DNA of 64,000 nucleotides from a virus. Positions 1,934 through 62,476 of the stretch are shown here, in pieces; within the stretch, counting starts at the first letter, position 1, and every line of letters starts with the position of its first letter. The translations under genes were made by a program, and so were the position numbers. Where the stretch lies: IMG/VR virus record IMGVR_UViG_3300034060_000182, positions 4,049 to 68,048 of that record; one strand, given 5' to 3'. The notes beneath the pieces were generated by a model that made no database searches, had not been told where the DNA came from, and saw only the letters and a program-made list of their open reading frames with translations.

Positions 1934-2045
1934 AGTTATGTTCTTTGCACCCACGCTGCTGCGTTAGCTAAGTCTTTAAATACTACTTTGAACTTGAATA
2001 ATAATACACTAATAATGTTTGCTTGCTTCTTCATAATTTAATTGT

Positions 2046-2207: not shown

Positions 2208-2379
2208 TGTACACTATATTAATTAATTCTTCTAATATAACACTTCTATCATAGTTTGTTTTCCAAGTACATTGAGTGTAAATATACTCTGATATTTCTC
2301 TGACTACCTGGTCTCTGCTTCCACCACATTTGATGAAAGCCTTGAAACCATCGATAGCATCATTAACTTGTTGACTCAT
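2200..2379 (-). CDS. Hypothetical protein, 59 aa
   Basis: Hand-translated MSQQVNDAIDGFKAFIKCGG...; starts 1 nt after the previous stop. Confidence 0.6.
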   Translation of the reverse strand: MSQQVNDAIDGFKAFIKCGGSRDQVVREISEYIYTQCTWKTNYDRSVILEELINIVYND

Positions 2380-2380
2380 A

Positions 2381-2587
2381 TTACCAACCAGTTTTTAAAT
2401 CATCTTCTAGTATGAAAGTCCAACCTTTGTGGTTAAACCATGAGGTTATACCTTCTTGCTCTTTATCTTCGTTATAAATGAAGGCAAATCTTTGTGGTAG
2501 ATTACCAATTAAAAAACCACGGTATTCTCTTTTATTCAACCATATAGTTGAACCTCGTCTTTTGTAAGTTTGAACTGTTGTTGACAT
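2381..2587 (-). CDS. Hypothetical early protein
   Basis: 68-aa ORF directly downstream of a class-1 promoter. Confidence 0.7.
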   Translation of the reverse strand: MSTTVQTYKRRGSTIWLNKREYRGFLIGNLPQRFAFIYNEDKEQEGITSWFNHKGWTFILEDDLKTGW

Positions 2588-2630
2588 AGTAAATAGGTAT
2601 TAAAGATTAATGTTATAATTTAATTTCGAA

Positions 2631-2663
2631 TATATTATCACACTATAATATTATTAAGTCCGT
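2631..2663 (-). promoter_or_regulatory. Class-1 promoter
   Basis: TATATTATC-N15-TAAGTCCGT on the + strand. Confidence 0.8.
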
Positions 2664-2798
2664 ATAGATAATCTAGTTAGTTCTAAGGTGTGAAAATGTT
2701 TATTAGAACAAAACAGTTGAGAGGTATATTACTACATCTCTCATCATCTCTATGCACTTTTAACCACAATATTGGTAGTATGAACGTTTAATTTCATA

Positions 2799-2831
2799 TA
2801 TATTATCTGAAGTGAAACAAAATAAGTCCGT
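2799..2831 (-). promoter_or_regulatory. Class-1 promoter
   Basis: TATATTATC-N15-TAAGTCCGT on the + strand. Confidence 0.8.
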
Positions 2832-2895
2832 GAAGTGTATAGCAAAAGCTACTAAACAGGAAATAATGGCACAACAAAGTCGTTAATTTAAAAAC

Positions 2896-2941
2896 TGTGA
2901 CATTAGGGTCTTATATTATATAGTAACAGGCTATTGTCACA
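2896..2941. repeat. 46-bp inverted-repeat site, copy A
   Basis: TGTGACATTAG-N24-CTATTGTCACA; second copy at 63201-63246. Confidence 0.85.
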
Positions 2942-2974
2942 CTTTTGTAGTGCTTACTATTGCTTCAAAAAGAT

Positions 2975-3000
2975 AAAAAAAAAGACCACCGAAGTGGCCT
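2975..3000 (-). terminator. Intrinsic terminator
   Basis: AGGCCAC-TTCG-GTGGTCT followed by a T run. Confidence 0.85.
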
Positions 3001-3010
3001 TATTTAATAA

Positions 3011-3304
3011 TTATACCAATGTTGGTAAATTTCTTACGAAGACTGGTAAATCTTTCGAGTTAGTATAACTTCCATACTTGTCGAAGCAAGGCATTAAGTC
3101 AAATTTTGCTCGCAAAGCGTTATAAACTAAGTCGTGGTTGTAAACTTTCAACTCGTTCTTATGATTAGTAAAACTTATAACAGTATTACTTCCAATTAAT
3201 GACTTGCGAATAACAAATCTTTTTGTAGTTAATTGATTTGTAGTTGATACTACTGCAGGAGCTGCCACTGGCGCTACAACTGCACTTGATTTTTTTGTTG
3301 ACAT
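3011..3304 (-). CDS. Early protein, paralogue of 4006..4272
   Basis: Shares LTTKRFVIRKSLIG...YNHD.VY..L.AKFD.MPCF.KYGSYTN...LP.FVR; ATG at 3304. Confidence 0.8.
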   Translation of the reverse strand: MSTKKSSAVVAPVAAPAVVSTTNQLTTKRFVIRKSLIGSNTVISFTNHKNELKVYNHDLVYNALRAKFDLMPCFDKYGSYTNSKDLPVFVRNLPTLV

Positions 3305-3348
3305 AGTATAAAATATTAAAATTATAAAGATTAAAATCAATCTTCGTA

Positions 3349-3381
3349 TATATTATCAATAATAAAATGTCGTAAGTCCGT
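3349..3381 (-). promoter_or_regulatory. Class-1 promoter
   Basis: TATATTATC-N15-TAAGTCCGT, flanked by GTGCTATAC. Confidence 0.8.
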
Positions 3382-3464
3382 GAAGTGCTATACATAATGG
3401 ACCTTAAAACTAGCTTTAGCAACTAAAGTCGGCTCTGCCTGCCCATTCCACCAATAGGTAGAGT

Positions 3465-3488
3465 AAAAAACCCTATTTCTAGGGCTTT
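3465..3488 (-). terminator. Intrinsic terminator
   Basis: AAAGCCCTA-GAAA-TAGGGTTTTTT. Confidence 0.8.
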
Positions 3489-3494
3489 ATTTAG

Positions 3495-3719
3495 TTATAT
3501 GTCATAATACTTATCTACTACAGATCCTAAGAACTCTAGTGTTGCATCTGGTGCTGTAAATTCAACTAAACTGTTATCAGAGTTAGATATTGTAGCATCA
3601 AATGATGCTGTTATAACTCTCACTAACACATCATCTTCATAGATAAATGTATTTGTGCCATCTGTGTATTCTGTGTACACTGTGCCAGATTCTTTGCTGA
3701 CTGCTTTAAGTAATTTCAT
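3495..3719 (-). CDS. Hypothetical acidic early protein
   Basis: 74-aa ORF with its own promoter and terminator. Confidence 0.75.
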   Translation of the reverse strand: MKLLKAVSKESGTVYTEYTDGTNTFIYEDDVLVRVITASFDATISNSDNSLVEFTAPDATLEFLGSVVDKYYDI

Positions 3720-3740
3720 AAGATATAATTTAATTTCAAA

Positions 3741-3773
3741 TATATTATCCTAATAGAAAACTTGTAAGTCCGT
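3741..3773 (-). promoter_or_regulatory. Class-1 promoter
   Basis: TATATTATC-N15-TAAGTCCGT, flanked by GTGCTATAC. Confidence 0.8.
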
Positions 3774-3796
3774 GGAGTGCTATACACATTAATGCT

Positions 3797-3822
3797 AAAA
3801 AAAGACCACATATAGTGGCCTT
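3797..3822 (-). terminator. Intrinsic terminator
   Basis: AAGGCCAC-TATAT-GTGGTCT plus T run; same stem as 2975-3000. Confidence 0.8.
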
Positions 3823-3841
3823 GTTTAGTTGTTATGATATG

Positions 3842-3943
3842 TTACACTGACATCATGAATTGTAACGCGAAGTATACTCCGATGTATAATGCAAGTACTA
3901 TTAGCGGTTTGATCTGATTGATTGTATTAGATATGTGTCTCAT
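3842..3943 (-). CDS. Small membrane peptide, 33 aa
   Basis: MRHISNTINQIKPLIVLALYIGVYFALQFMMSV, one hydrophobic helix. Confidence 0.5.
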   Translation of the reverse strand: MRHISNTINQIKPLIVLALYIGVYFALQFMMSV

Positions 3944-4005
3944 GATTATATGATTTAGTTAGATTAATAAAATAAGCAGTTTAACGATTTGCTTAGATCG
4001 ATGCA

Positions 4006-4272
4006 TTATACTATTTCTTTTAAAGCTCTTACGAATGCTGGCAGATTATTAGTATTAGTATAACTACCGTATTTAGCGAAGCATGGCATTGCATCAAACT
4101 TAGCTTTTAATTGGTCATATACTTTATCATGATTGTATATGCATTCAACATTCTTATTGTTCATGAATGTTATTACTGTATTAGTTCCAATCAGCGATTT
4201 TCTGATTACGAATCTTTTAGTAGTTAATGCTACTTGTGGTGCTGCTGCTGCAGCTGCTGTTGATTTTGACAT
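4006..4272 (-). CDS. First early gene, paralogue of 3011..3304
   Basis: Near-identical core to the paralogue; Ala-rich N-terminus. Confidence 0.8.
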   Translation of the reverse strand: MSKSTAAAAAAPQVALTTKRFVIRKSLIGTNTVITFMNNKNVECIYNHDKVYDQLKAKFDAMPCFAKYGSYTNTNNLPAFVRALKEIV

Positions 4273-4314
4273 AGTTATTAAATTAAATTATAAAGATCTT
4301 AATTAATCTTCATA

Positions 4315-4347
4315 TATATTATCAACATCATATTCTTGTAAGTCCGT
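4315..4347 (-). promoter_or_regulatory. Class-1 promoter (degenerate tandem copy at 4351-4383)
   Basis: TATATTATC-N15-TAAGTCCGT; neighbour CATAACATC-N15-TAACTCCGT. Confidence 0.8.
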
Positions 4348-36449: not shown

Positions 36450-37991
36450 ATGGCTGCAATATTAGAATTAAAATACTTTAACTCTTTCTGGTTAAAGAAA
36501 CTAGATACAATAGTAGAGGTTGAAAAAGCAACGGCTAACTTAGTTACAGCCGTTGTTAATTCACCTAACTTAGAAATAACAACTCCTAATGGTGACATTG
36601 GAGTAGGACAACTTGTTACTTATGAAAACCAAGACGAAAGCGATGGTCCATATTGGATATACAAAATAACAAACTCCACGAATATAGTATTAAATGAACC
36701 TGTTAATATAGCTGTTACTGATAAAATTACTTTTGGTAAAATAGTTAATTTTGATTATATTCCAGCTGCTTACACTGCTACTCCTTTAACAGATTGGTAT
36801 GTAGAAGAAGCTAGAATACGAGGTGGTTATAATAACACAAATGTAGATCTTGGCGTTAAAGCTTATATAGTTGAAGATAATATTAATCAACAACATCGAA
36901 AAAGTTCGTTAATACATTCTGGTGTTTTTAACTCTAGAACAGGTATAAACCAAACAAACCAATTTTCTGTTGGTGAAGATATAACTAGAAGTTTAGATCC
37001 ATATAATGGTTCTATTCAAAAATTATATTCAGAAGACACTAACTTAACTGTTTTTCAAGAGTTCAAAGTAAGTAGAGCTTTAATAGATAAAGACGCTATT
37101 TACTCAGCGGAAGGTCAACCAATGACTACTTCTGGAACACAGGTTATTGGACAGATTCAAGCTTATTCTGGTAACTATGGTATAGGTACTAATCCAGAAA
37201 GTTTTGCAGTTTATGGTTATAGAAAATACTTTGTTGATAGAAACAGAAACGCTGTATTAAGACTATCACAAGATGGTATAACAGAAATATCCGAATATGG
37301 AATGATTGATTTCTTTAGAGATAATTTATCACTAATAGGTAACGATGGTTTTATATTAGGTTTTTGGGACATGCATAATAAACAATATGTTGTATCATTG
37401 CAACCTACAGATACAGAAGAATACAATACTCTTTCTTTTGATGAAGACGTTAATGGTTGGACTAGTTTCTTTAATTATAAACCAAACTTTGGAGACAGTT
37501 TAAGAAACAACATGTATACTTTTAAAAATGGTAATATATGGCAACATTATTCAAACACATCAAACTGGGGTAGTTTTTATAACTTCGACTATGATTCATC
37601 AGTTAACCTAGTATTAAATCCAAATGTTTCTACAATAAAAACATTTAAAACATTAAACTACGAAGGTAGTGATGGTTGGGAGATGGAATATCTTTACACA
37701 GATACAGATACTTCTGCTTCTATACTAAAATCAACAACTAATCAAGTTTTCACATTAGAAGATTTAGAACAACAGTTATTTGTAAATTCTTTCAAAAGAA
37801 AAGAAAACAAATATTTTTCTAACCTTATAAATATAACTCCTTCTGCTAGCACGGAAGTTCTTTGGGGAAATTCAGTTGCTGGAGTAAAAGGAGCTTATGC
37901 CACGGTAAGAATGAAATATTCTAATCTTAGTAATTCTTCAAAAGCAGAGTTATATGCTGTATCTTCAGAATATGTAGAATCTTCTTATTAA
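36450..37991 (+). CDS. Tail nozzle/stabilisation protein, C-terminal part
   Basis: GSIQKL, YGIGTNPESFA, VLRLSQDGITEIS..GM..FF, GWTSF, KTFKTLNYEG, KENKYF. Confidence 0.75.
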   Translation: MAAILELKYFNSFWLKKLDTIVEVEKATANLVTAVVNSPNLEITTPNGDIGVGQLVTYENQDESDGPYWIYKITNSTNIVLNEPVNIAVTDKITFGKIVNFDYIPAAYTATPLTDWYVEEARIRGGYNNTNVDLGVKAYIVEDNINQQHRKSSLIHSGVFNSRTGINQTNQFSVGEDITRSLDPYNGSIQKLYSEDTNLTVFQEFKVSRALIDKDAIYSAEGQPMTTSGTQVIGQIQAYSGNYGIGTNPESFAVYGYRKYFVDRNRNAVLRLSQDGITEISEYGMIDFFRDNLSLIGNDGFILGFWDMHNKQYVVSLQPTDTEEYNTLSFDEDVNGWTSFFNYKPNFGDSLRNNMYTFKNGNIWQHYSNTSNWGSFYNFDYDSSVNLVLNPNVSTIKTFKTLNYEGSDGWEMEYLYTDTDTSASILKSTTNQVFTLEDLEQQLFVNSFKRKENKYFSNLINITPSASTEVLWGNSVAGVKGAYATVRMKYSNLSNSSKAELYAVSSEYVESSY

Positions 37992-40962: not shown

Positions 40963-43900
40963 ATGGAAGAAATATATACTTTACCTGATGGTTCAACTGT
41001 AGACATATCTAGTTATTCTCAGTTTCAAAAGACTCTTTTTTTAATGAACAATGCTGGAGCAAAAAAGTCGAAAGGTACTGCGAAAAGTGCGAACGCATTA
41101 CCTACGAAGAAAGCACAGAATCAGGAGTTTCAAAAAGTTACGGAAGAGCATCGTCAAAAAATGGGTACGGTGTCCAAATCGGGAAGTGGTTCTTCGGGTT
41201 CAAAGAAATATAGACTACTTACAGAAGCAGATGTAGACAAAGCAAGAAAAAAAGGCGTATTGCCTCCTCCTTCTACTATACGTTTTTCTGAAGGAGAGTT
41301 AAACGCAGATAGTTATGAATATGACTTCAAAGGAAATCTAAGTAAGAAATTAAACAAACCTTTACCAGAATATAAATACGGTAAAGATTATAAACCTAAA
41401 CACGAAGAAACGAGAGAAGTTTACTTAGCTAACAAGGATAATATAAGTGTAAAAATAGATAAAAAACTAAATACTGAAACCGAGTATGAAACAAATCGTG
41501 TTGATGTAAATGGAGTGCCAGATCCGTTTTTAAATGACTTAAAAATAAGACAATTAGAAAGAGAGAAAGCTAAAACAGATTCTGCTTTAGAACATCCTTA
41601 TTTATATTATTCTTCTTACAATCAAGAAAAACCAGATTCTTTTGTTAAAGATAATTTTAACGAAATGGAATTAGAGGATCTTGGTATAAATGCTCAGGAC
41701 TTTGATGGTTTCTTAAACAAGAATAAATACAAAGAAGATTTTTTAGATAAAGAACAAAGAGGTTTATTTACAAAAGGAACTGGTGTTGCTGGATATGATG
41801 TAGAATTAGCTAAAGAATTACAGAAGAAAAAGTTACTTACTTTATACATGTCTAATATTCAAAGTAGAGATATTACTAGACAAACTATCAATCAAGATAT
41901 TGAAATAACTAAAGGACTTAGAGACAAGAGAGATATAAAAGAAAACGTTATATTTGATAGTAACAAGTTAATAAATTACGTTGAAAAGAATTTTCCTATA
42001 TATACTCAAAAGTTAAAAGAAAGCGAAGCAAAAAGCAGAAAAATATACGAAGAAGCTAAAACAGGTGGAACAGACTTTTGGAGTTGGGACACTGGTGCTA
42101 AAATGACAAACGCTACTTGGAATGGTTTTACAAACAGAGTGCATCAATTTAGTGCCACCGTTTACGACAAAATAGGCATGAAAGATGTTGCAGAATATTC
42201 TAGATTCATGGCGGATCAAGATGCTGTAGAAACTCCAGACGACAGATCTGTAGGATATGTTGGTGGTAAAGAAACTTATGTTGATGGTAAAAAATATTTA
42301 GTTAGTTCTAAAGGAGATGTTTACGATGCTGATTTAAAAATACGAATAACAGATATATTAGAACCTAAAAAGAGAGAAAAAATATATGAAAACTCTAAAT
42401 ATGGACAAAGTGGTTTTGTATTTAGTCCTCAAGGAGTAGCTATAGGAACATCTGCTGTAATAGGCGATATGATCTTACAAGCTGCTTTAACTAGAGGTGT
42501 AGGTGCTTTTGGTACAGTTGCTACTGAAACTAGATTAGCGTTAAGTGTTGCTGGAAAACAAACTCAAGCAAGTCAATTGTTTAATAGTGCTTCTTCTGCT
42601 TTAAAGATGATACCAATGAAAAGATCTACTGGATATGCAATGATTTCTCAAGGAGCATTAGGATATTCGCAAGGATTTGAAGAGACATTAAAAGCAGCTA
42701 GAGAAAATGGTATTAATGATAAGGAAGCGTTTGCTTTAGCTTCTAACGCTGCTCAAAGAATGGGTGCTTTATATGCCACAACAGGTGTAATAAATCCACA
42801 AACAAACGTTGTTGATAATTTATTCACTGCTAAAAACGTAGTAAAAAAAGCAATAGAACAATACACTAAAACTGGTAAGAAAGGTTTTATTCAATCAATA
42901 GACGACGTAGTAAGAAATACACCTAGAAACTTAGTTGAATTTGCAGAAGAAGGTGGTAAAGAAGTTGTACAAGAGAATGTGCAACAAGTTGGTGAGATTG
43001 GTTTAAATAAATTAACAAATCAAGAAGCTGGTAAAAAAATACTTAATGAAGAATATACTGCTAGTGATTTCATAAATACTTCTATATTATCTTTTATATC
43101 TTCTGGTTTAATATCTAAAGCAAAATTACCTGACTTTAAAGTAGAAGACAATGATGTAAACGATTTAATTTCTTTAAGTAAATTAGCTCAAAATAAAAAA
43201 CAATTCGTAAGTACAATAGATGGTTTAGTTGATAGCAAGGTATTTACCGTAGATCAAGCTAATAACTTAAAAGCAGACGTAGATATTTATTCTAATAATA
43301 TAAACAAACTACCTAAAGTTGTTCCTCCTTCTGCGGCGATGCCAATTATGAGGGAGTTGGACAATATTACTAAACTAGAAAACGAAAAGAAATCTACAGA
43401 TAAAGCATTTCATTCTCAAATAGATAGAAAAATAGAAGAAGTTAGGTCAAAAATGCTTGACATACAATATGAAGGTGAATTAAAAGAAAAAAATGAAGCT
43501 ATATCAAGAGCTATAAAAAAAGGAATTGCTAAAGGTATTGAAATGCAAACTTTTTCTAATAGAGAAGAAGTAAAAAACTATTTAGTAAACGAAGTTGGAA
43601 TGTCTAACGAAGATGCAGAACTTTATTATACTCAAACTGGTTTTGCTTTAAGTGCTGACACAATAAGAAAATATTCTAAAGATCCAAGTTCTATTTCAGA
43701 CAACAAACAGATTATAGTTGTAAATGAGGGAGCTTCAAGAGACGCGGGTGTTATACAACACGAATTTTTACATGGATTATTACAAAAAACATTAAAAGAT
43801 AATCCTGAAGCACAAAAACTACTTGGAGTAGCTTTAAACGACGAACTTTTTAAAATACAAGACAACATAAATAAAAATAAACTTAAAGGAACTGTTGTTC

Positions 43901-46900
43901 CAGCGGAGTTTATGGAAAAAATGGAAAAATATTTTAAAAGAAATCAAGAAGACAAAGCAAAATCTATTGGTCAATATCAAAAAGATGTTATGTTTGCTGA
44001 TGGAGACGTATCAAGAATAGCTCAAATAAAAGCAGAACATAACGACTATATGAAAAAGTTAGATGGTGTTATGTGGGAAGAAGCTATAACTGTTTTTTCT
44101 GATGCGGTAAGACAAGGTTATGTTACTTATGAAGAAAGTAAATTTACAAAACTAGGCGATGTAATAAGAAGAGTTTTACAGCAATTAGGTATAGTAAATA
44201 TAAAATTTAATAACGGAAGAGATGTTTATAATTTTATAAAAGATTATAATAAAAGCGTTGAAACAGGTAACTGGGGTAGAGCTATTACTAAAATGAGTAA
44301 CAAAGGCGCTAAGATTAACATTAAATCAAAAACAAACGCGCCTGTTCAAAACACAAAGCCAAAAGAAGGTTCTAAATTTTCTACCACTGCAAAATTTACT
44401 TTATCAGAAAGAAAATCATCTGAAGATATAAAGAAAGATGTAAATAAAAATTATGATAAAGATAAATGGGGAGCAGGTAGTATTTTAGGAAGAGATGAAA
44501 ACCCAGCTATTGAAAGAGTTCTTTATAACATACTTAGTGAATATGATTATATAATAAAAGGTAAAGCAAAAGTATTAAACTTTGCTAACACTCCAGGTTA
44601 TAATGACATGGATATGATTAGTGAAACGTATATACAGTTAATGCCTCATATTAGAAACTTTAATAAAGAGTTCCTACAAAAAAGGGAAGAGTTTAAAAAA
44701 GAACTAGTAAATAAAGGTTTAGACCCTAATAGTGCGGAATTTAAACAAAAAATAGAAGAACAAGACAAAAAAGGTTATGAAGGTAAAAAAGGCATTGTAA
44801 AAGAAAATGATGACTTAAACGCTTGGATAAACTCTCAACTTGTAAATAAAATGAATGCCGCTATGAAGTCAGGGAATGTTTCTGAAGAAGCATTTACAGA
44901 CGACATTGAAGGAGAAATGTTTAAAGAGTCTAGAATAGTAGATGGTTTCACAGGCGATCAAAGCTACCTAGAGGAAGAAGGTGATAGTATTTACGAAGCA
45001 GAAGAAGACTTTGCTCAAGAACAAAATCAACTAGCTGTATTACTTAGTGATCCAATATATAGATTTGTAGATGAAAAAGGTAAACCAATAGACATTGAAA
45101 CAGTGCCTTTTGGTGGTTTCTTTGTTACTGATATTTCAGATCCAAGTATTGCCGCTAATATAAAACTAAGAACAGAAACTGATCCTACTAAAATAGCGGA
45201 GCTTAATAAGGAATTAAAAGATTTAGAAAGAGGCTTAGAGTTACAGAATAAACAAGATATTACATTTGAAGAAAAAGAAGAACTTAAACAGTTAAAATCT
45301 TTTAAATCTTACGATCTTTCTACTGGAATGATGGTAAACACGTTTAAAGCTCTTTCTATTCAAGATACACCTGCTAAAATCATTACAGATGAGGTTGGTA
45401 GAGAAATATTAAGATCACCAAACATTCAAACATTAGAATATAGAAATTTTAAAGAAAAATTGTCTACATTGTCAAAAACAATGGCGAGAAGAATGACATT
45501 TAAAAATGGTCCAGAGATTGAATCTTTAATGTATAATGAATGGGCGTTGCTTTATGATGTGATAAACCACCCTGTAGATCCTGTTACAGGACAATCTAGT
45601 TATGCGTCAAAGAAGTTACCTCCTACATTAAAAGAAACAGACGAAAAAGGGAATTTTAAGAAAATAAACAATATAACTAGAGTTAAGTTTTTGCAAGCTT
45701 ATTACGGAGTTGAAGAAGCTAGTCGTATAATAAAAACATACGGAGGAATCGATGCTGAAAAAGAATTGCGTGAATTTGAAGATCCAGAATTAAGTGAAAA
45801 AGATCAAAAAGCATTAAGACCAACAACCTACTTTGATAGAAGAACAGCTTTAATGGAGTTGTTTGGAGATGTTTTGGTTTTACAAGAAGCCAGAAGACTC
45901 TTACGTAATCCTGAGTTCTTAGATAGAGTATCTGAAAGAAATGTGAACTTATACAACGAGTTAAAAGACGATGTTATTAGAGCTAGTGTTTTAAATGACA
46001 TGTCTAAAGGCAAAAGTGATATTGTTAAGTTCACTTTGTCTGACAACAAAATAATGTCTGGTTTAACTGATTCTGAAACTAGAAGATATAATTCTTTATT
46101 TGAAACAGGAACAAAGCTAAGAAACAATATAGCTGATAACGTTTTGTTTAGCTATGATTCTTCTCCTAAAACTAAGGATATTATTAAATTTAGTTTATCT
46201 GATTTAGAAAAAGAAAAATCAAATAAAGTTTCACCTTTTAAAAATACAAACAAAAAATACGAAAACAACTTTAAACCACCTTCTAGTATATTCGAAGAAA
46301 CTGATTACAGTGAAGAAGAATTAATTATAGCTAAAAACTATTATATAAAAGCTTTACAATACTCAGATATAACTGATACAGAACCCGGCACAAAGCTTCA
46401 TACTTTTAAATACTACGAAGATGTAGAAAAAGAAGTGATAAAAAGAGTAATGGAAACTCTAAGATTATTACAAATATTTCCTAGAACAGTAACAAACATA
46501 GAAGACTTTTTAGATCCAGAAACTGGAGAGATAGATTTTAATTTTAAAGAAAATAGTAATAATCCTTTTGTTATTAAAGATTACAAAGATGGTTACGTAG
46601 ATTCTATGATACAAAAATCTATAACACAACAAAATGAATCGTATGTAAAATATTGGACTGAAATAAAAAACAATCCTGTTTTTAGAGTTAAAGAAATAGA
46701 TAAATTATCTTACAATCAGTACTCTGCTTTAAAAGCTTTAGTTGATGCGGTTTATGATGAAGATAATTCTTATCATAATGGTGTTAAAATTGAAGGTCAA
46801 AACAAATTTGGACTTTATGAAGAAGGAAATAATAACAACTTAAAATTTAATCCTTTTTTCACATACTTGTTTTTAAAAGATGTTTTATCTAGTAGATATA

Positions 46901-49900
46901 GATCAAATCCAGATACAAATTCTTCTGAAAGAAAACCATTTAAGAAATCAGATTATTTTACTACATTAGAACCAATAGACACTTATCTTGATATAATTAT
47001 ACAAGATGTTCAAGACAACTTCAGCGATGTAAAATCGCAACCAGGAATGGTTTATTCTTTAATAAATATTGATTACGGAAAAACATTTTCTAAAGATTGG
47101 GAAGAAAATAGACTTGTTTATAGAGAAGATGATGTTTCTATATTTAAGTTTGAAGCAGGTAGTAAAGACCAAAACAAAGCATATTCTTTAAATAGATTAA
47201 CTGCAAACAACACAAATCCAAAAGGACTTTGGTGTACAGGTCAAAGCGTTTCTACAGCAGCTATGCAGTTAGGAGAAGGTGATTTTTACACCGCTACTGA
47301 TAACGAGTATAAACCTATCATAGCTATTAGAATGGATGCAAGTGCAAATTATTCAGTGGCTGAAGTAGACGGTGTTGGAGAAGAACAGGTTTTTAAAACA
47401 GAAGACCTGCCACTTGTTTCTAAAATATTCTTAGAAACAGATTTAGAAAATAAAGAAAGTTTTTCTAATATAGTAAACGAAATGTACAATATTGCTACTC
47501 AGAATAAAGAAGATTTTGAAGCAAGCAGTAATCCTACAGTAAATGAAGAATTGATCAGGAATGTAAAAAAAATGACTAAAGGAGGTTATTTTATTTTTAA
47601 ACTTGATGAAAAAGACAGAAATAAGGTTCTTAACAAAGCAGATGAATTAAAGAAGTTTTTAACAGAAGCAGGTTACCATGGTGAACAAGTTAGCTTAGGT
47701 GATTTCGTTGATACTGGAAGTAGACATGACTTAAACATAACTGAGGAATCTGCTGAATTACTAGCAGAACAAGCAATTATAACAGAGCAAGAGTTAAACT
47801 TAGACGAGGCAGATGACGGAGGAATTTTTATATATCGTGCTGATGAAAATAATAAACTAAAAAGTTCTAATTTTGTTCTTCCTTATTTACAAGAAATTGA
47901 TTATGTTTATTTTGAAGGTGCTGAAAGATTATTTGCACCACAGTTAGCTAAAGGAAATTTACTTTCTGTTAGTGGAAGACTAGACACGTCTTTTGATGGT
48001 GGTTATTTAGAACTTCCTGATTCCATAAACTTCGATGTTGATGTAATGGTAACACTTGAGGGAACAGCAAATCATTTTGTTTTATCTGATTCTGATACAA
48101 ACTTCGAAGGAAGACAATTCACTCTAACAACTAGTATCGAATTACCAAAAGAATTACTAGAAGAAGAAGGTACTAGTATAGATATTACGACTGTAGATAA
48201 TACTTCAGAAATACTTTTAAGAGGATTAGCAGATGTTATTTATTTACCTGACAATATAAGAAGTTTAGCTCTTCAAAAAGGAAGTATGCCTAATAGTACT
48301 AAACAAACTATGATTGTAGGCTCTATTGATATAGAAGAATTATATATAGAGTCAGGATATACAGACGAAGGTTTTGATCCAAATCAATTTAATTTTGTTA
48401 ATGAAAGAACTTCTATAAAAGAAACATTTTTTGCTTTAAACAAAATGCCTAACGAAGCTCTTGTTAAAAACATATTAAATAGTGATATTGGTTTAATGTC
48501 AGAAAAAATAGTTTTAGAAGGAACAGAAAGTTTTAGAGATGACAATGGTGTTCTTAATTTTAAAGATTTTGAAATAACAGTTAAAGAACCAAGTAAAGGT
48601 AAACCAAACATTGGTAAATTTACTTTAGCAGAAGAAGAAAACGGTAAATTAAATCCTTTGTTAAAAGGTCTTCCTTTTTCAAAACAATGGGTTGTTGCTA
48701 GAGATATAGACAATGCTATCAATAAAGGTAGAGCCGCTGAGGGAATAAGAATACCATTTAGCGTACCAAGTAGGTCTAAGTTCTCTGATGAACAAACAGC
48801 TTATTTTATAATACAAAAAGTAGCAGAAGGTTTTAATGATTTTGAATTTAGAGTAAAGAAAAATGCTAAAGGACCTTTGACTAAACAAGTGCTTGATGCA
48901 TTAGATATTAAATCTAAAGAATACCAAGACAGAGCAGAAAGAAACAACAATATAGAAAGAACTATAAACGAATTTATAGAAGAAAATAAAGGTGTGTCTG
49001 CCGCTGAAACATTTTCACCTGAAACTGCTAAAAACATTGGTAAAAATGTTGGTAAATATGAAATGTACTTACCACCAGAAGACGAAGATTTCTTAGGTTT
49101 GCTATACACACTCGCGGGTGCAAAAGGTAAAAAAGGTGATGATCAATTAAAGTTCTTAACAGATACTTTGTTAAAGCCATATAGTGATGCAATGCTTAAC
49201 TTAATGAAAGCAAGACAGACTATGTATAAAGACTGGCAAGACTTAATTAATAAAAAGCATAAAGGTATAAGTAAATTACTTAAACAAGATTCAGGATATG
49301 GAGGTTATTTAGTTGACCAAGCTGTTAGGGTTTATCTTTGGAGCGCTGCTGGTTACGATATACCTGGATTAGATAAAAAAGATTTATTCCATTTAAGAGA
49401 AATAGTAAGAACTAATCCTAAACTAAGAACCTTTGCTGCTGATGTATCTTTACTTTCTAAACAAGCAAATGGCTATACTGAACCAGATAGTAACTGGGGA
49501 TTTGGAAGTGTGGTAAGTGATATCAACGGAGTTATATCTAAATCTAATAGAAAAAAGTATTTAGAACAATGGCAAAATAATATTGATAAGGCTTTTTCTA
49601 AAGATAACATGAGTAAGATAGAAGCTGTATACGGAAGAAAGTACGTTAAAGCTTTAAGAAACACTCTTGATAGAATGAAGACTGGTAGTAACAGAGCAGA
49701 AGGATCAAACGATGCTTTTCTTAACTGGTTAAATGGAGCTACAGCGGTAACAATGTTTACCAACATAAGATCTGCTTTCCTTCAAACTTTAGGCGCTGTC
49801 AATTACTTAAATACTTCTGATAATAATATAGTTAAAGCTGGCGCTGCACTTTTAAACGTACCTCAGTTCCTTAAAGACTTTAAAACTATATGGAACTCAG

Positions 49901-51003
49901 ACTACTCTAAAGATAGAAGATCTGGTCTTACTAATGATATAGCCGAAGCTGAATTAGCGCAGATAATGAATGATCCTAGAAATAAAAGTGTTTTAGATAA
50001 ATTCAAAGCAGCTAATTACTGGATATTGAAAAAAGGTTATGGTCCTACTAGATTTGCAGATAGTTTTGCAATTGCTTTTGGTGGTGCTACTTTTTATAGA
50101 AATAGACTAGACGCTTATACTAAAAAAGGCATGAGTGAAGCAGAAGCTGAAAAAGAAACAATGCGTGACTTTTATGAAATATCAGAGTCTTCACAGCAAT
50201 CAGCAGACGTTTCTAAAATATCAATGAACCAAGCAAGTACTAAAGGACGTTTACTTTTATCTTTCTTAAATACACCATTTCAATATTCAAGAATAATAAA
50301 AAGATCTGTTATTGACCTAGCGAAAGGAAGAGGAGACGTTGCAAATAATATCGCTAAAATAGTTTACTATTCTGCTATTCAAAACATTATGTTCAACTTC
50401 CTACAAAATGCTTTATTTAGTATTATATTTGACGATGACGACGAAAGAGATGAAGCAGGTAAAGGTAAATTTGATCAAGCTAAGATCAGAGCAGTAAGTG
50501 GATCTTTAGATACGTTATTAAGAGGCTCTGGATTACAGGGAGTAATTATATCTACCGTTAAAAATATAATAATAAAATGGTATGAGAAGAGTGGTGATCC
50601 AAAAGGATATGGAGACGTATTATTAGAAGCTGCAAACCTTGCTCCTTCTATAGGTATTAAAACAAGAGCTTTGGCTAAGTCTTATAAAGCTGTTGAATAT
50701 AATAAAGATGAAATAGAATACAAAGGATTTAGTTTAGATAATATCTATGCGTTAGAAGCATTGACATCTTTGACATCAGCTGCAACGAACGTACCTGTAG
50801 ATAGATTAATGCAGAAAATTGAAAATGTATCAAACGCATTAAATGAAGAATATGAAGCATGGCAAAGAGTTGCTTTTGCGATGGGTTATAATAAATGGAA
50901 CTTAGGTATTAGTGACGAGAAAAACGTGTCAACAAATGCTGCAGGTGAATTGAAGATACCAGAGTTAAAACAAGAGGAATTAAAAATGCCAGAATTAAAA
51001 TAA
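40963..51003 (+). CDS. Giant multidomain ejection/polyvalent protein, 3346 aa
   Basis: EEGGKEVVQE motif, HEFLH zincin, KF[ST]L[SA] linkers, WCT...QL..GDFY...PIIAIRM module, hydrophobic C-terminal region. Confidence 0.8.
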   Translation: MEEIYTLPDGSTVDISSYSQFQKTLFLMNNAGAKKSKGTAKSANALPTKKAQNQEFQKVTEEHRQKMGTVSKSGSGSSGSKKYRLLTEADVDKARKKGVLPPPSTIRFSEGELNADSYEYDFKGNLSKKLNKPLPEYKYGKDYKPKHEETREVYLANKDNISVKIDKKLNTETEYETNRVDVNGVPDPFLNDLKIRQLEREKAKTDSALEHPYLYYSSYNQEKPDSFVKDNFNEMELEDLGINAQDFDGFLNKNKYKEDFLDKEQRGLFTKGTGVAGYDVELAKELQKKKLLTLYMSNIQSRDITRQTINQDIEITKGLRDKRDIKENVIFDSNKLINYVEKNFPIYTQKLKESEAKSRKIYEEAKTGGTDFWSWDTGAKMTNATWNGFTNRVHQFSATVYDKIGMKDVAEYSRFMADQDAVETPDDRSVGYVGGKETYVDGKKYLVSSKGDVYDADLKIRITDILEPKKREKIYENSKYGQSGFVFSPQGVAIGTSAVIGDMILQAALTRGVGAFGTVATETRLALSVAGKQTQASQLFNSASSALKMIPMKRSTGYAMISQGALGYSQGFEETLKAARENGINDKEAFALASNAAQRMGALYATTGVINPQTNVVDNLFTAKNVVKKAIEQYTKTGKKGFIQSIDDVVRNTPRNLVEFAEEGGKEVVQENVQQVGEIGLNKLTNQEAGKKILNEEYTASDFINTSILSFISSGLISKAKLPDFKVEDNDVNDLISLSKLAQNKKQFVSTIDGLVDSKVFTVDQANNLKADVDIYSNNINKLPKVVPPSAAMPIMRELDNITKLENEKKSTDKAFHSQIDRKIEEVRSKMLDIQYEGELKEKNEAISRAIKKGIAKGIEMQTFSNREEVKNYLVNEVGMSNEDAELYYTQTGFALSADTIRKYSKDPSSISDNKQIIVVNEGASRDAGVIQHEFLHGLLQKTLKDNPEAQKLLGVALNDELFKIQDNINKNKLKGTVVPAEFMEKMEKYFKRNQEDKAKSIGQYQKDVMFADGDVSRIAQIKAEHNDYMKKLDGVMWEEAITVFSDAVRQGYVTYEESKFTKLGDVIRRVLQQLGIVNIKFNNGRDVYNFIKDYNKSVETGNWGRAITKMSNKGAKINIKSKTNAPVQNTKPKEGSKFSTTAKFTLSERKSSEDIKKDVNKNYDKDKWGAGSILGRDENPAIERVLYNILSEYDYIIKGKAKVLNFANTPGYNDMDMISETYIQLMPHIRNFNKEFLQKREEFKKELVNKGLDPNSAEFKQKIEEQDKKGYEGKKGIVKENDDLNAWINSQLVNKMNAAMKSGNVSEEAFTDDIEGEMFKESRIVDGFTGDQSYLEEEGDSIYEAEEDFAQEQNQLAVLLSDPIYRFVDEKGKPIDIETVPFGGFFVTDISDPSIAANIKLRTETDPTKIAELNKELKDLERGLELQNKQDITFEEKEELKQLKSFKSYDLSTGMMVNTFKALSIQDTPAKIITDEVGREILRSPNIQTLEYRNFKEKLSTLSKTMARRMTFKNGPEIESLMYNEWALLYDVINHPVDPVTGQSSYASKKLPPTLKETDEKGNFKKINNITRVKFLQAYYGVEEASRIIKTYGGIDAEKELREFEDPELSEKDQKALRPTTYFDRRTALMELFGDVLVLQEARRLLRNPEFLDRVSERNVNLYNELKDDVIRASVLNDMSKGKSDIVKFTLSDNKIMSGLTDSETRRYNSLFETGTKLRNNIADNVLFSYDSSPKTKDIIKFSLSDLEKEKSNKVSPFKNTNKKYENNFKPPSSIFEETDYSEEELIIAKNYYIKALQYSDITDTEPGTKLHTFKYYEDVEKEVIKRVMETLRLLQIFPRTVTNIEDFLDPETGEIDFNFKENSNNPFVIKDYKDGYVDSMIQKSITQQNESYVKYWTEIKNNPVFRVKEIDKLSYNQYSALKALVDAVYDEDNSYHNGVKIEGQNKFGLYEEGNNNNLKFNPFFTYLFLKDVLSSRYRSNPDTNSSERKPFKKSDYFTTLEPIDTYLDIIIQDVQDNFSDVKSQPGMVYSLINIDYGKTFSKDWEENRLVYREDDVSIFKFEAGSKDQNKAYSLNRLTANNTNPKGLWCTGQSVSTAAMQLGEGDFYTATDNEYKPIIAIRMDASANYSVAEVDGVGEEQVFKTEDLPLVSKIFLETDLENKESFSNIVNEMYNIATQNKEDFEASSNPTVNEELIRNVKKMTKGGYFIFKLDEKDRNKVLNKADELKKFLTEAGYHGEQVSLGDFVDTGSRHDLNITEESAELLAEQAIITEQELNLDEADDGGIFIYRADENNKLKSSNFVLPYLQEIDYVYFEGAERLFAPQLAKGNLLSVSGRLDTSFDGGYLELPDSINFDVDVMVTLEGTANHFVLSDSDTNFEGRQFTLTTSIELPKELLEEEGTSIDITTVDNTSEILLRGLADVIYLPDNIRSLALQKGSMPNSTKQTMIVGSIDIEELYIESGYTDEGFDPNQFNFVNERTSIKETFFALNKMPNEALVKNILNSDIGLMSEKIVLEGTESFRDDNGVLNFKDFEITVKEPSKGKPNIGKFTLAEEENGKLNPLLKGLPFSKQWVVARDIDNAINKGRAAEGIRIPFSVPSRSKFSDEQTAYFIIQKVAEGFNDFEFRVKKNAKGPLTKQVLDALDIKSKEYQDRAERNNNIERTINEFIEENKGVSAAETFSPETAKNIGKNVGKYEMYLPPEDEDFLGLLYTLAGAKGKKGDDQLKFLTDTLLKPYSDAMLNLMKARQTMYKDWQDLINKKHKGISKLLKQDSGYGGYLVDQAVRVYLWSAAGYDIPGLDKKDLFHLREIVRTNPKLRTFAADVSLLSKQANGYTEPDSNWGFGSVVSDINGVISKSNRKKYLEQWQNNIDKAFSKDNMSKIEAVYGRKYVKALRNTLDRMKTGSNRAEGSNDAFLNWLNGATAVTMFTNIRSAFLQTLGAVNYLNTSDNNIVKAGAALLNVPQFLKDFKTIWNSDYSKDRRSGLTNDIAEAELAQIMNDPRNKSVLDKFKAANYWILKKGYGPTRFADSFAIAFGGATFYRNRLDAYTKKGMSEAEAEKETMRDFYEISESSQQSADVSKISMNQASTKGRLLLSFLNTPFQYSRIIKRSVIDLAKGRGDVANNIAKIVYYSAIQNIMFNFLQNALFSIIFDDDDERDEAGKGKFDQAKIRAVSGSLDTLLRGSGLQGVIISTVKNIIIKWYEKSGDPKGYGDVLLEAANLAPSIGIKTRALAKSYKAVEYNKDEIEYKGFSLDNIYALEALTSLTSAATNVPVDRLMQKIENVSNALNEEYEAWQRVAFAMGYNKWNLGISDEKNVSTNAAGELKIPELKQEELKMPELK

Positions 51004-61672: not shown

Positions 61673-61698
61673 ATCACACATTTTTGACATAACTTACA
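61673..61698 (-). promoter_or_regulatory. Class-2 promoter
   Basis: TGTAAG-N13-GTGTGAT upstream of erf and the replication operon. Confidence 0.6.
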
Positions 61699-62476
61699 TG
61701 AAGTCAATTACTTGTGAAGCATCGACGTTAGCTATTAATTTTGAAATAGCAAACTTTTTTAATTCTGAAACCCTTACATAAGCACTTGGACCTTTGAAGT
61801 CTAAAATTTCTGCAATTGCATTTGCTGAATGCTTATCACAGTCTAAACCATAACTAAGTCTTAATACGTTTGCTTCAACATCTGTTAAATGTTTCTTAAA
61901 TATACTAAGTAAATAAGCATTTAGTAGATCTATATTATATTCAGTTGATTTGTCTTCATATTGATACATACCTTTTTCTGAATTAGGATAGAAGTCTGAA
62001 GAGTCAGCATCGTTAAAACCGATATCTATACTTTTAAATATACTATTAAAAAACATTTCAAGTATCTGTTTGTCTTCAGGATTTTTACGTATTTCATTTA
62101 TTTTATATTCAGGGATTCTCATTGTCCCTCTATATACATTTATCGCATATCTAATGCGTCCTTTAATACGTTTAGATAGAAATGATTTGATTGTCTGTTC
62201 TTGGTTCTCAGATGTGTTTATTTTGTCCCAGTCTATTTTATCTACTGACATTATTAATCCTATACTACCTTCTTGTATTAAGTCGTTTATATCTAAAATA
62301 CCAGAAGCTTGGTCTGCAGTTGAAAACTTTTTAGCTATATTTTCTACTAACGGAAGAAACATGTTTATCAGATCGTCTCTTGAATACTCGTTGTATTGCT
62401 TTTGTTCTAATCTACCAATAGTCTTTTTTACATCGTTTTTATATATTAGATGGTTTTGTAAGTTATACTTTTTCAT
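61694..62476 (-). CDS. Sigma70-family sigma factor
   Basis: Region 2 LVENIAKKF...DLIQEGSIGL, MRIP; region 4 EANVLRLSYGL...IAEIL...RVSELK..AISKL. Confidence 0.9.
   Translation of the reverse strand: MKKYNLQNHLIYKNDVKKTIGRLEQKQYNEYSRDDLINMFLPLVENIAKKFSTADQASGILDINDLIQEGSIGLIMSVDKIDWDKINTSENQEQTIKSFLSKRIKGRIRYAINVYRGTMRIPEYKINEIRKNPEDKQILEMFFNSIFKSIDIGFNDADSSDFYPNSEKGMYQYEDKSTEYNIDLLNAYLLSIFKKHLTDVEANVLRLSYGLDCDKHSANAIAEILDFKGPSAYVRVSELKKFAISKLIANVDASQVIDFM

What the first reader, a model, noticed from the sequence alone, without database searches (positions are those of the whole stretch)
44480..44900. Possible sigma-region-2-like module inside the injected giant protein
Seen: right after a KFTLS linker the protein reads ILSEYDYIIKGKAK...DMDMISETYIQLMPHIRNFN-[charged insert of about 45 aa]-ENDDLNAWINSQLVNKM. 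This loosely follows sigma region 2 (LV..IA..Y...DLIQEG..GL..A..KFD...F..YA...IR). No RNA polymerase catalytic motif is visible in this protein. Inference, speculative: instead of a virion RNAP as in N4 or crAss-like phages, this phage may inject a sigma-like factor that redirects host core RNAP to the class-1 promoters.
Basis: inference. Interest (0 to 1): 0.75.

Follow-up and report, generated by a model that had tools for sequence, protein, structure and literature searches.

The report
Sigma-like domain inside giant phage protein
A huge phage protein that probably travels inside the virus particle contains a divergent copy of the part of bacterial sigma factors that grips RNA polymerase, which hints that these marine phages deliver a ready-made transcription starter together with their DNA.

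Summary
The quoted residues are present: aa 1190-1297 of a 3346-aa ORF (40963-51003). The sigma idea holds up. The window's own domain (aa 1145-1316) hits no curated sigma model. A profile of it finds compact relatives in other giant phage proteins that lack the ~45-aa insert. These relatives hit Sigma70_r2 (10 of 28; one whole protein above Pfam's cut-off) and TIGR02937 (12 of 28). In the AlphaFold model, 22-26 of the 50 best PDB matches are sigma domain-2 chains (Z 5-7). The adjoining 350 aa give none. A complex prediction puts the region-2.2-like helix on the beta' clamp helices (0.64; controls 0.00). I found no sigma-4 domain and no RNAP motif. An ordinary sigma gene lies at 61694-62476. 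Early promoters CGGACT-N17-GATAAT recur in 6 of 6 genomes of this clade. The compact clade uses AATAC-N11-GATAAT. The shared -10 and different upstream box mirror the conserved sigma-2 and the unrelated downstream domain. Packaging rests only on synteny with crassvirus cargo genes. Verdict: a real sigma-2 homologue. An injected initiation factor is plausible (~45%) but untested.

The parts
40963..51003 (+). Giant ORF, 3346 aa (P0001). It is the last gene of the rightward structural block and the presumed virion cargo/ejection polyprotein.
   Evidence: no Pfam or PHROG family; 108 homologues of 1892-4238 aa
44395..44910 (+). Sigma-70 region-2-like domain, aa 1145-1316
   Evidence: AF2 pLDDT about 85-90 over most of it. 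22-26 of the 50 best VIA rows are sigma domain-2 chains. Relatives hit PF04542 and TIGR02937.
44605..44664 (+). Region-2.2-like helix DMDMISETYIQLMPHIRNFN (aa 1215-1234), the most conserved stretch. It is the predicted contact with the beta' clamp helices.
   Evidence: Invariant R87 N88 F89 N90 of the domain. hhalign pairs it with DLIQEGSIGL of the phage's own sigma. Interface residues 72-84.
44665..44805 (+). Insert of about 45 aa (aa 1235-1281), a helical hairpin specific to this clade. It sits between the 2.2-like and 2.3/2.4-like helices.
   Evidence: Absent in 18 of 20 distant relatives in alignment A4, which are shorter than 145 aa over the domain. Helices H91-106 and H114-126 in the model. 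No insert residue lies in the predicted beta' interface.
44806..44868 (+). Region-2.3/2.4-like helix NDDLNAWINSQLVNKMNAAMK (aa 1282-1302). Its family consensus L.GWINSQL.NK is kept in both clades.
44899..44997 (+). Acidic, low-confidence linker (aa 1313-1345)
   Evidence: pLDDT below 50 at model residues 169-201
44983..46032 (+). 350-aa alpha/beta domain of unknown fold that completes the module (aa 1341-1690). It is conserved only in the insert-bearing clade.
   Evidence: AF2 pLDDT 79, pTM 0.71. VIA best Z 5.6 with 0 of 50 sigma rows. Foldseek found nothing. Its HMM finds none of P0234-P0263, only P0232 and P0233.
44392..44406 (+). KFTLS boundary motif before the module. Further copies lie at 46027-46041, 46186-46200 and 48616-48630.
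   Evidence: [KR][FY][STA][LIM] recurs at module borders in 33 of 33 homologues examined; the border just before the sigma-2 domain carries it in most but not all of them.
43759..43773 (+). HEFLH (HExxH) motif in the N-terminal part, nearly invariant in the family
61694..62476 (-). Conventional phage sigma factor, 260 aa (P0111), with DLIQEGSIGL
   Evidence: PF04542 at 26 bits, cut-off 24; 27.1 bits in the six-frame search; thousands of relatives
721..4346 (-). Six of the seven class-1 promoters CGGACT-N17-GATAAT (721-749, 2634-2662, 2802-2830, 3352-3380, 3744-3772, 4318-4346). The seventh is at 63665-63693, upstream of the operon that holds the sigma gene.
   Evidence: 7 exact matches against 0.23 expected; extended consensus
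36450..37991 (+). Protein with a crassvirus muzzle C-terminal domain, three genes upstream of the giant ORF
   Evidence: PF25729 at 34.5 bits, cut-off 27. Same arrangement in the distant clade, L012.

Best explanation
Residues 1145-1316 of the giant protein are a divergent homologue of sigma-70-family domain 2 (regions 2.1-2.4). A clade-specific ~45-aa helical hairpin interrupts it between the 2.2-like and the 2.3/2.4-like helices. Together with a 350-aa domain of unknown fold it forms a discrete module bracketed by KF[ST]L motifs. The giant protein sits where crassviruses encode their virion cargo and virion RNA polymerase. Proposed mechanism: the protein is made late and packaged, then ejected with the DNA. 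The module, possibly cut out at the KF[ST]L sites, binds the beta' clamp helices of host core RNA polymerase through its 2.2-like helix. It then acts as a pre-made initiation factor for the earliest promoters (CGGACT-N17-GATAAT). The sigma-2 part reads or melts GATAAT and the downstream domain stands in for sigma-4 on the upstream box. One of these promoters drives the phage's ordinary sigma gene, which would then take over. What is shown: homology and fold of sigma-2; the module boundaries; the promoter classes and their conservation. What is only predicted: the contact with beta'. What is inferred: packaging, ejection, cleavage, promoter recognition.
For: Sequence. A profile of the window clade's domain (A2) searched against 1.84 billion representatives gave 40 proteins at E<=1e-3. 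About three quarters are giants of 1400-3300 aa and the rest are shorter proteins of 87-936 aa. Distant ones align as two adjacent stretches without the insert. 10 of 28 members of A4 match PF04542, best E 1.7e-6, and the next family matches 3 of 28. Whole P0241 scores 26.3 bits against a cut-off of 24 over model positions 1-67 of 71. Five further proteins score 13-20 bits among the 14 scanned whole. TIGR02937 matches 12 of 28 (best 3e-7), and 20 of the 25 families listed are sigma models.

Fold. In VIA-align against 48,161 chains, 22 of the 50 rows name a sigma factor and 4 more are chain F of RNAP initiation complexes. All lie on model residues ~1-176, for example 7d7d_F (Z 6.9, rmsd 3.4, 97 aligned), 8hkc_E (Z 6.7, rmsd 4.9, 107) and 4x8k_A (Z 6.4, rmsd 2.8, 94). 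The neighbouring 350 aa gave 0 of 50.

Complex. With RPOC_FLAJ1 200-380 the score was 0.64, and the best of 3 controls was 0.00. That mark was reached by 58 of 80 solved complexes and 2 of 110 mismatched pairs; the counts hold only roughly because my own alignment was used. Runs agree in >=78% of contacts and the partner's pLDDT is >=77. The interface is beta' 285-319 with domain residues 40-47, 66-69, 72-84 and 160-162.

Context. A muzzle-domain protein lies upstream, both here and in the distant clade. In PhiCrAss001 the order is muzzle gp44, cargo gp45/46, RNAP gp47/49/50, all found in virions by mass spectrometry (PMC10172136, passages).

Promoters. There are 7 exact class-1 sites against 0.23 expected. 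6-8 sites per genome, on one strand, occur in 5 of 5 other genomes whose sigma-2 domain is 39-94% identical, with controls 0. The compact clade has AATAC-N11-GATAAT at 6-8 per genome in 4 of 4 genomes, with controls 0, and none in G000. The sigma-2 helix GWINSQL.NK is shared by both clades but the downstream domain is not. The stand-alone sigmas of both clades are 55-61% identical with nearly the same 4.2 helix, which fits poorly with unrelated upstream boxes. The host sigmaA box TAnnTTTG is at chance level, 106 against 100.9. Flavobacterial sigmaA reads TAnnTTTG and ECF motifs carry CGT (PMC9723704, passages).
Against: The window's own domain matches no sigma model, in Pfam at E<=10 or in NCBIfam at E<=1. 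The link is therefore transitive. hhalign against the phage's own sigma family is weak: E 0.11, 0.11, 0.016 and 0.04, probability <=3%. Foldseek found nothing. The VIA Z scores of 5-7 are in the range the tool calls common for helical models. The complex pass may be memory of solved sigma-2/beta' structures. It also used a stand-in beta' from Flavobacterium johnsoniae, because the true host is unknown. No sigma-4 or other DNA-binding fold was recognised in the module. Nothing here shows that the protein is in virions. The syntenic giant of MW202828.1 shows no BLASTP similarity and no profile hit. The module never occurs as a gene of its own: 2 fragments only. So release by cleavage is conjecture. 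In 2 of 7 class-1 sites GATAAT overlaps a perfect TAnnTTTG. The promoter-to-module correlation rests on two clades, that is, one evolutionary change.
Confidence: 0.45

Rival explanations
1. The domain is a true sigma-2 homologue that binds core RNAP, but it does not choose promoters. It could be a decoy that blocks host sigma from the beta' clamp helices (host shut-off). Or it could tether RNAP at the DNA entry site so that transcription pulls the genome in. In either case class-1 promoters are read by a host sigma or by the phage's ordinary sigma.
For: The predicted contacts use only the 2.1/2.2-like helices. No sigma-4-like domain was recognised. A normal sigma gene is present in 6 of 6 genomes examined. 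2 of 7 class-1 sites overlap a perfect host-type TAnnTTTG.
Against: The 2.3/2.4-like helix (L.GWINSQL.NK) is as conserved as the 2.2-like helix across both clades. A mere clamp-helix blocker would not need that. GATAAT, not TTTG, is the invariant part of the early promoters in both clades. The stand-alone sigmas keep the same 4.2 helix while the upstream boxes differ.
Confidence: 0.25
2. The giant protein is not delivered into the next cell. The sigma-2 domain acts late in the producing cell, for example as a late-transcription or RNAP-sequestering factor, or it has a structural role.
For: The gene lies in the late, rightward block behind class-2-type promoters at 36418 and 38289. No proteomic evidence of packaging was available. 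T4 gp55, which by recall is chain F of the top fold match 7d7d, is a sigma-2-only late factor.
Against: The position directly after muzzle-type tail genes matches the crassvirus cargo/RNAP slot. The domain always sits inside 1.4-4.2-kaa multi-module proteins with a hydrophobic, highly conserved C-terminal part. Feature neighbours of that C-terminal part are viral clusters; the nearest with a Pfam family carry LPD38/LPD39, which is a lead only. The GATAAT promoters head early, not late, genes.
Confidence: 0.12
3. There is no homology. A helical bundle with a sigma-like pattern arose by chance or convergence.
For: The window's sequence has no direct curated-model hit. Z scores are moderate. hhalign is insignificant.
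Against: Independent libraries both put sigma families first for the relatives: 10 of 28 and 12 of 28, with one above Pfam's curated cut-off. The fold list is dominated by sigma-2, while the control domain gives none. hhalign, Pfam and the complex model all use the same register.
Confidence: 0.05

Closest known systems
Sigma-70 family domain 2 (Pfam PF04542 Sigma70_r2; NCBIfam TIGR02937 sigma70-ECF)
   Same: Same order of helices. Relatives of the domain match these models. The fold matches are sigma-2 chains. The predicted contact with the beta' clamp helices runs through the 2.2-like helix.
   Different: The domain is embedded at residue ~1145 of a 3346-aa protein rather than in a 20-70 kDa free factor. 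A ~45-aa hairpin is inserted between the 2.2-like and 2.3-like helices. No sigma-3 or sigma-4 was recognised. The window's own sequence falls below every curated threshold.
Phage T4 gp55 (late sigma consisting essentially of domain 2)
   Same: Sigma-2-only architecture. Chain F of 7d7d is the best sigma-type fold match: Z 6.9, rmsd 3.4, 97 of 137 residues aligned. That chain F is gp55 is recalled, not shown by a call.
   Different: gp55 is a small free protein made after infection, and it needs gp33 and the sliding clamp (recalled). Here the domain is part of a giant late protein, and the promoters have a conserved upstream box.
Virion RNA polymerases of crassviruses (PhiCrAss001 gp47/49/50) and of N4-like phages
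   Same: A giant protein encoded after the tail-tip (muzzle) and cargo genes. The presumed purpose is the same: start early transcription without new protein synthesis (PMC10172136 passages; PMC13434306 abstract).
   Different: There is no polymerase motif or polymerase family match. Instead of bringing a polymerase it would bring only a specificity subunit for the host enzyme.
Injected RNAP modifiers and polyvalent proteins (T4 Alt; Iyer et al. 2017, PMC5512222)
   Same: A multi-domain protein with an HExxH motif that is proposed to be delivered with the DNA to jump-start transcription (abstract and passages). Feature neighbours of the C-terminal part include clusters with LPD38/LPD39, a lead only.
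   Different: The word 'sigma' occurs 0 times in the main text of that paper; its supplements could not be read. Alt modifies RNAP enzymatically, whereas this would act as a subunit.

Membership tests
Sigma-70 family (domain 2) | Homology to regions 2.1-2.4, as recognised by curated models, for the protein family to which the domain belongs | tested here: met
   PF04542 matches 10 of 28 members, best E 1.7e-6. P0241 scores 26.3 bits against a cut-off of 24. TIGR02937 matches 12 of 28, best 3e-7. The members are linked to the window's domain at library-wide E 1e-10 to 9e-4.
Sigma-70 family (domain 2) | Direct match of the window's own sequence to PF04542 or TIGR02937. This is a detection criterion, not a structural one. 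| tested here: not met
   There is no sigma family among the hits of member 1 at E<=10 in Pfam or at E<=1 in NCBIfam. The whole protein has none either. The insert splits the model's span.
Sigma-70 family (domain 2) | Sigma-2 fold | tested here: met
   22 of the 50 best VIA rows name a sigma factor, plus 4 chain-F rows, at Z 5.0-6.9 on model residues ~1-176. The control domain gave 0 of 50. The Z values are moderate, and Foldseek found nothing.
Sigma-70 family (domain 2) | Binding of the beta' clamp helices through region 2.2 | tested here: inconclusive
   This was tested in silico only. Score 0.64 against a best control of 0.00; the mark was reached by 58 of 80 solved and 2 of 110 mismatched pairs; contacts agree >=78%; partner pLDDT >=77. 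Like complexes are solved, so the pass may show likeness only.
Sigma-70 family (complete sigma factor) | Domain 4 (region 4.2 helix-turn-helix) that reads the -35 box | tested here: inconclusive
   No r4 family was found in the 14 relatives scanned whole or in the giant itself. No sigma row appears among the 50 for aa 1341-1690. Absence from such lists does not exclude it.
Sigma-70 family (complete sigma factor) | Promoter-specific initiation with core RNAP | not testable with these tools
   Only correlative evidence exists: GATAAT is shared by both clades while the upstream box differs with the downstream domain.
Virion RNA polymerase (crassvirus DPBB type or N4 T7-like type) | Catalytic metal-binding motif or polymerase domain | tested here: not met
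   No DxDxD or DxDGD motif. No Pfam or PHROG family. No PDB sequence match by phmmer or by profile. Only aa 1145-1690 were folded.
Virion RNA polymerase (crassvirus type) | Gene position after muzzle and cargo genes | tested here: met
   The crAss_MUZ_C protein is three genes upstream here and two genes upstream in L012. Order in PhiCrAss001 from PMC10172136.
Polyvalent proteins of phages (Iyer et al. 2017) | Many unrelated domains in one delivered polypeptide, with a zincin-like peptidase | tested here: inconclusive
   HEFLH is nearly invariant but no peptidase family matched. The module structure and boundary motif are conserved. LPD38/39 appear only as neighbours in the atlas.

The most novel reading that the evidence does not exclude
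A widespread group of ~60-70-kb marine podophages related to Flavobacteriia phages has filled the crassvirus 'virion RNA polymerase' slot with a polyprotein. One module of that polyprotein is a pre-made, injected sigma factor: a sigma-2 domain that reads GATAAT, fused to a clade-specific non-sigma-4 domain that reads the upstream box. The first phage promoters would then fire on host core RNAP with no phage protein synthesis and independently of the unusual Bacteroidetes sigmaA. The module would be released at KF[ST]L sites.
Probability: 0.35. Interest if true: 0.9.

Novelty: new variant of a known kind. Interest (0 to 1): 0.8.

Why it matters
Known ways for a phage to start transcription at once are to use host holoenzyme, to inject a whole RNA polymerase (N4, crassviruses, phiKZ-like phages), or to inject an enzyme that modifies host RNAP (T4 Alt). 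An injected specificity subunit would be a fourth, much cheaper way. It would explain how phages of Bacteroidetes, whose primary sigma reads unusual promoters, can carry sigma-70-style early promoters. It would also give a natural example of sigma domain 2 working with a non-sigma-4 partner domain, which would be useful for understanding and engineering promoter recognition. It would add a transcription factor to the repertoire of giant 'polyvalent' virion proteins. The prediction can be tested directly with two purified proteins and one promoter.

Tried and rejected
Searches that gave nothing or too little:
- Whole giant protein against Pfam (E<=1) and PHROGs (E<=0.01): nothing relevant.
- phmmer of the giant and of the module, and hmmsearch with the family profile, against PDB sequences: nothing meaningful.
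- Foldseek against PDB for both models: no match at E<=0.001, TM about 0.1.
- hhalign of the domain alignments against the phage's own sigma family: right register but insignificant.
- megablast and tblastn of the giant against the phage collection: no match.
- tblastn of P0253: one unrelated partial hit in Maribacter phage Panino.

Relatives and architecture:
- The syntenic 3859-aa giant of MW202828.1 has no BLASTP similarity (best E 0.14) and no hit to the A4 profile. Only the first 50 kb of that record were searched.
- Crass-type or N4-type virion RNAP was rejected: no motif, no family.
- Sigma-4 in the rest of the module: not seen among 50 VIA rows (best Z 5.6) or in Foldseek. This does not exclude it.
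- Stand-alone versions of the module: only 2 fragments, on contigs of 2.8 and 1.8 kb.

Promoters:
- The class-2 pattern TAAR-N13-RWGTGAT gives 6 matches against 0.94 expected here. In the compact clade there are only 0-1 per genome, like the controls. A relaxed version was uninformative. So I could not assign class 2 to the stand-alone sigma by conservation.
- The class-1 pattern is absent from the first 4.1 kb of the record, outside the window, and from the compact clade: 1 one-mismatch hit in 5 genomes.

Literature: five searches for a packaged or injected sigma factor found none. One search for the elemo phages found nothing useful. Only listings and abstracts were seen, except passages of PMC5512222, PMC7318152, PMC10172136 and PMC9723704. 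Supplements were not readable and might list further domains or virion proteomes.
Full report
The object. The window is bases 4049-68048 of a 68,048-base virus record with direct terminal repeats, rated 100% complete. Its terminase and portal match PHROG families. Its nearest named relatives by terminase are podophages of Flavobacterium, Cellulophaga, Tenacibaculum and Maribacter (87 records; best is MW202828.1 at 64.5%). A rightward block (4782-51003) holds the structural genes and ends with a 3346-aa ORF, 40963-51003. Three genes upstream lies a protein with the crassvirus muzzle C-terminal domain (PF25729, 34.5 bits). In PhiCrAss001 the muzzle gene gp44 is followed by cargo genes gp45 and gp46 and by the RNA-polymerase proteins gp47, gp49 and gp50. 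All of these were found in virions by mass spectrometry (PMC10172136, passages read). So the giant ORF occupies the slot of a virion cargo/RNAP gene. That is the only basis here for calling it 'injected'.

The observation. The quoted residues are at aa 1190-1297 (nt 44530-44853), 41 residues after KFTLS at aa 1144. The protein has no DxDxD or DxDGD motif and no Pfam or PHROG family. It has no relative among PDB sequences. KF[ST]L[SA] occurs four times, at aa 1144, 1689, 1742 and 2552. A [KR][FY][STA][LIM] motif recurs at module borders in all 33 homologues examined. The border just after the module carries it in every one, typically as GKSDIVKFSLAE; the border just before the sigma-2 domain carries it in most but not all of them. 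The stretch aa 1145-1690 is therefore a discrete module.

Relatives. The module has 108 homologues of 1892-4238 aa at 41-96% identity, many on contigs of 61-74 kb. A search restricted to 300-956 aa found only two fragments on short contigs. The module therefore always lies inside a giant protein. A profile of the first 172 residues of the module (A2, 17 sequences) was run against 1.84 billion representative proteins. It found 40 proteins at E<=0.001; about three quarters are giants of 1400-3300 aa and the rest are shorter proteins of 87-936 aa. In the distant ones the match falls into two adjacent stretches, profile positions ~8-84 and ~128-164. So the 'charged insert' is an insertion peculiar to the window's clade. 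The compact core reads ...LP.FS.EDFI.ET...LIPHIRNFNP..N.SL.GWINSQL.NK....

Is it sigma region 2? The window's own domain hits no sigma model. The family does.
- PF04542 is matched by 10 of the 28 members of A4 (best E 1.7e-6). The next family is matched by only 3.
- Scanned whole, P0241 reaches 26.3 bits (cut-off 24) over model positions 1-67 of 71. P0262, P0260, P0257, P0245 and P0261 reach 20.3, 18.4, 15.3, 14.7 and 13.0 bits. The other 8 of the 14 scanned gave no sigma hit at E<=0.1.
- In NCBIfam, TIGR02937 is matched by 12 of 28 (best 3e-7), and 20 of the 25 families listed are sigma-factor models.
- Profile-profile comparison with the family of the phage's own sigma is insignificant (E 0.11 to 0.016). 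It always pairs DMISETYIQLMPHIRNF with DLIQEGSIGLIMSVDKI, and the following helix with region 2.3/2.4.

Fold. The AlphaFold2 model of aa 1145-1690 (34 sequences) has mean pLDDT 75 and pTM 0.63, with about 85-90 over most of the first 165 residues. Foldseek gave nothing. VIA-align against 48,161 representative chains gave a list in which 22 of 50 rows name a sigma factor. Four more rows are chain F of RNAP initiation complexes. All of these lie on model residues ~1-176, with Z 5.0-6.9. Examples are 7d7d_F (Z 6.9, rmsd 3.4, 97 aligned), 8hkc_E (Z 6.7, rmsd 4.9, 107), 4x8k_A (Z 6.4, rmsd 2.8, 94) and 1h3l_B (Z 6.4, rmsd 3.1, 78). These Z values alone are in the range the tool calls common for helical models. 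The composition of the list is what carries weight. As an internal control, a separate model of aa 1341-1690 (pLDDT 79, pTM 0.71) gave a mixed list with best Z 5.6 and no sigma row, and nothing in Foldseek.

Contact with RNA polymerase. I ran a complex prediction of the domain (with alignment A4) against residues 200-380 of Flavobacterium johnsoniae beta'. This is a stand-in, because the host is unknown. The verdict was that the model supports binding but does not show it.
- The score was 0.64 and the best of 3 controls was 0.00.
- That mark was reached by 58 of 80 solved complexes and 2 of 110 mismatched pairs. These counts hold only roughly, since my own alignment was used.
- The runs agree in at least 78% of contacts, and the partner's pLDDT is at least 77.
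- The interface joins beta' 285-319 to domain residues 40-47, 66-69, 72-84 and 160-162. These are the 2.1-like and 2.2-like helices. No residue of the insert takes part.
- Sigma-2/clamp-helix complexes are solved, so the pass may only restate the likeness.

What else the phage has. A conventional 260-aa sigma (61694-62476, minus strand) passes PF04542 and carries DLIQEGSIGL. It has thousands of relatives, the nearest on contigs of the same phage group. Local profile searches of all open frames of the window found only these two sigma-type sequences. Five complete genomes of the compact clade each also have a separate 250-256-aa sigma above the cut-off. These are 55-61% identical to P0111 and have nearly the same 4.2 helix. 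In one of them the giant gene again follows a muzzle-domain gene. So the pairing 'free sigma plus giant with sigma-2' holds in 6 of 6 genomes examined.

Promoters. CGGACT-N17-GATAAT occurs 7 times exactly, against 0.23 expected. All copies are on the minus strand, at 721-4346 and at 63665. The last one heads the operon with the sigma gene. The conserved block extends to caCGGACTTA-N15-GATAATATATwyGAA.ATTAA.
- Five other complete genomes, whose sigma-2 domain is 94, 67, 63, 43 and 39% identical to the window's, carry 6-8 copies each (one mismatch allowed) on one strand. Controls were 0.
- Four genomes of the compact clade carry instead 6-8 copies of AATAC-N11-GATAAT, in the context ACAAAC.AAATAC-N11-GATAATATA, with controls 0. 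G000 has none. The class-1 pattern is essentially absent from that clade.
- So the -10-like GATAAT is common to both clades, as is the 2.3/2.4-like helix of the giant's sigma-2.
- The upstream box differs, as does the domain that follows sigma-2: the HMM of aa 1340-1690 finds none of the distant proteins.
- The free sigmas keep the same 4.2 helix across the clades. That fits badly with unrelated upstream boxes.
- The flavobacterial sigmaA box TAnnTTTG is at chance frequency in the window, 106 against 100.9. According to passages of PMC9723704, sigmaA reads TAnnTTTG and the ECF-type motif carries CGT.

Caveats on the promoter argument: two clades mean one evolutionary change. In 2 of 7 sites GATAAT overlaps a perfect TAnnTTTG. 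I could not tie the second promoter class to the free sigma by conservation.

Reading. Shown or well supported: a real sigma domain-2 homologue with a clade-specific insertion, inside a conserved module of a giant late protein. Predicted: binding to the beta' clamp helices. Inferred: packaging, ejection, release at KF[ST]L sites, and use as a pre-made initiation factor for the GATAAT early promoters, with the 350-aa partner domain replacing sigma-4. I put this full mechanism at about 0.45. A core-binding decoy or tether gets about 0.25, a purely intracellular late role about 0.12, and no homology about 0.05.

Comparison and novelty. It works like a sigma-2-only factor such as T4 gp55, and it serves the purpose of the N4 and crassvirus virion polymerases. 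It is not a complete sigma factor by the features tested, and it is not a polymerase. Five literature searches found no packaged or injected sigma factor. The main text of the polyvalent-protein survey never uses the word sigma; its supplements could not be read. I class the finding as a new variant of a known kind. The first-stage notes on the same window about the class-1 promoters, the class-2 promoters and the KF[ST]L polyprotein idea were used as leads and were re-tested here.

Noticed in passing
window 44392-44406, 46027-46041, 46186-46200, 48616-48630: The boundary motif [KR][FY][STA][LIM], typically ..D(I/V)VKFSLAE.., recurs at module borders in all 33 homologues examined. The number of modules varies. 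About 2450-aa forms have only a ~100-aa piece where the window has the ~810-aa module aa 1742-2552. This suggests a cleavage or docking signal.
   Followed up: partly
window 61694-62476 (-): A conventional 260-aa sigma factor lies downstream of a class-1 promoter (63665-63693) and is directly followed by a class-2-type site (61673-61696). Orthologues in the compact clade are 55-61% identical.
   Followed up: partly
L064 (G001:1-8000), L065 (G004:1-10500), L066 (G003:1-6500): The compact-clade phages have their own early promoter class, ACAAAC.AAATAC-N11-GATAATATA. It occurs 6-8 times per genome on one strand.
   Followed up: partly
window 36450-37991 and 31231-36396: A crassvirus muzzle C-terminal domain and PHROG 14478 'virion structural protein' pieces are split over two adjacent genes. 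So this non-crass podophage group shares tail-tip parts with Crassvirales.
   Followed up: no
window 14453-15997: A phage-encoded GroEL-type chaperonin (Cpn60_TCP1, E 2e-56). MW202828.1 also annotates groEL and a chaperonin 10 subunit.
   Followed up: no
L001 (MW202828.1) 741-12320 (-): The syntenic giant protein of the nearest named relative (3859 aa, two HExxH motifs) shows no BLASTP similarity to the window's giant and no hit to the sigma-2 profile. The giant slot evolves by wholesale module replacement.
   Followed up: partly
window 48619-51000: The C-terminal ~790 aa are the most conserved part of the giant protein and include hydrophobic stretches and an acidic DDDDE run. Atlas feature neighbours are viral clusters; the nearest with a Pfam family carry LPD38/LPD39.
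   Followed up: partly
window 714-721 and 3737-3744 (-): In two class-1 promoters GATAAT runs into a perfect host-type TAnnTTTG box (GATAATATATTTG). The other five deviate at the TTT positions.
   Followed up: partly
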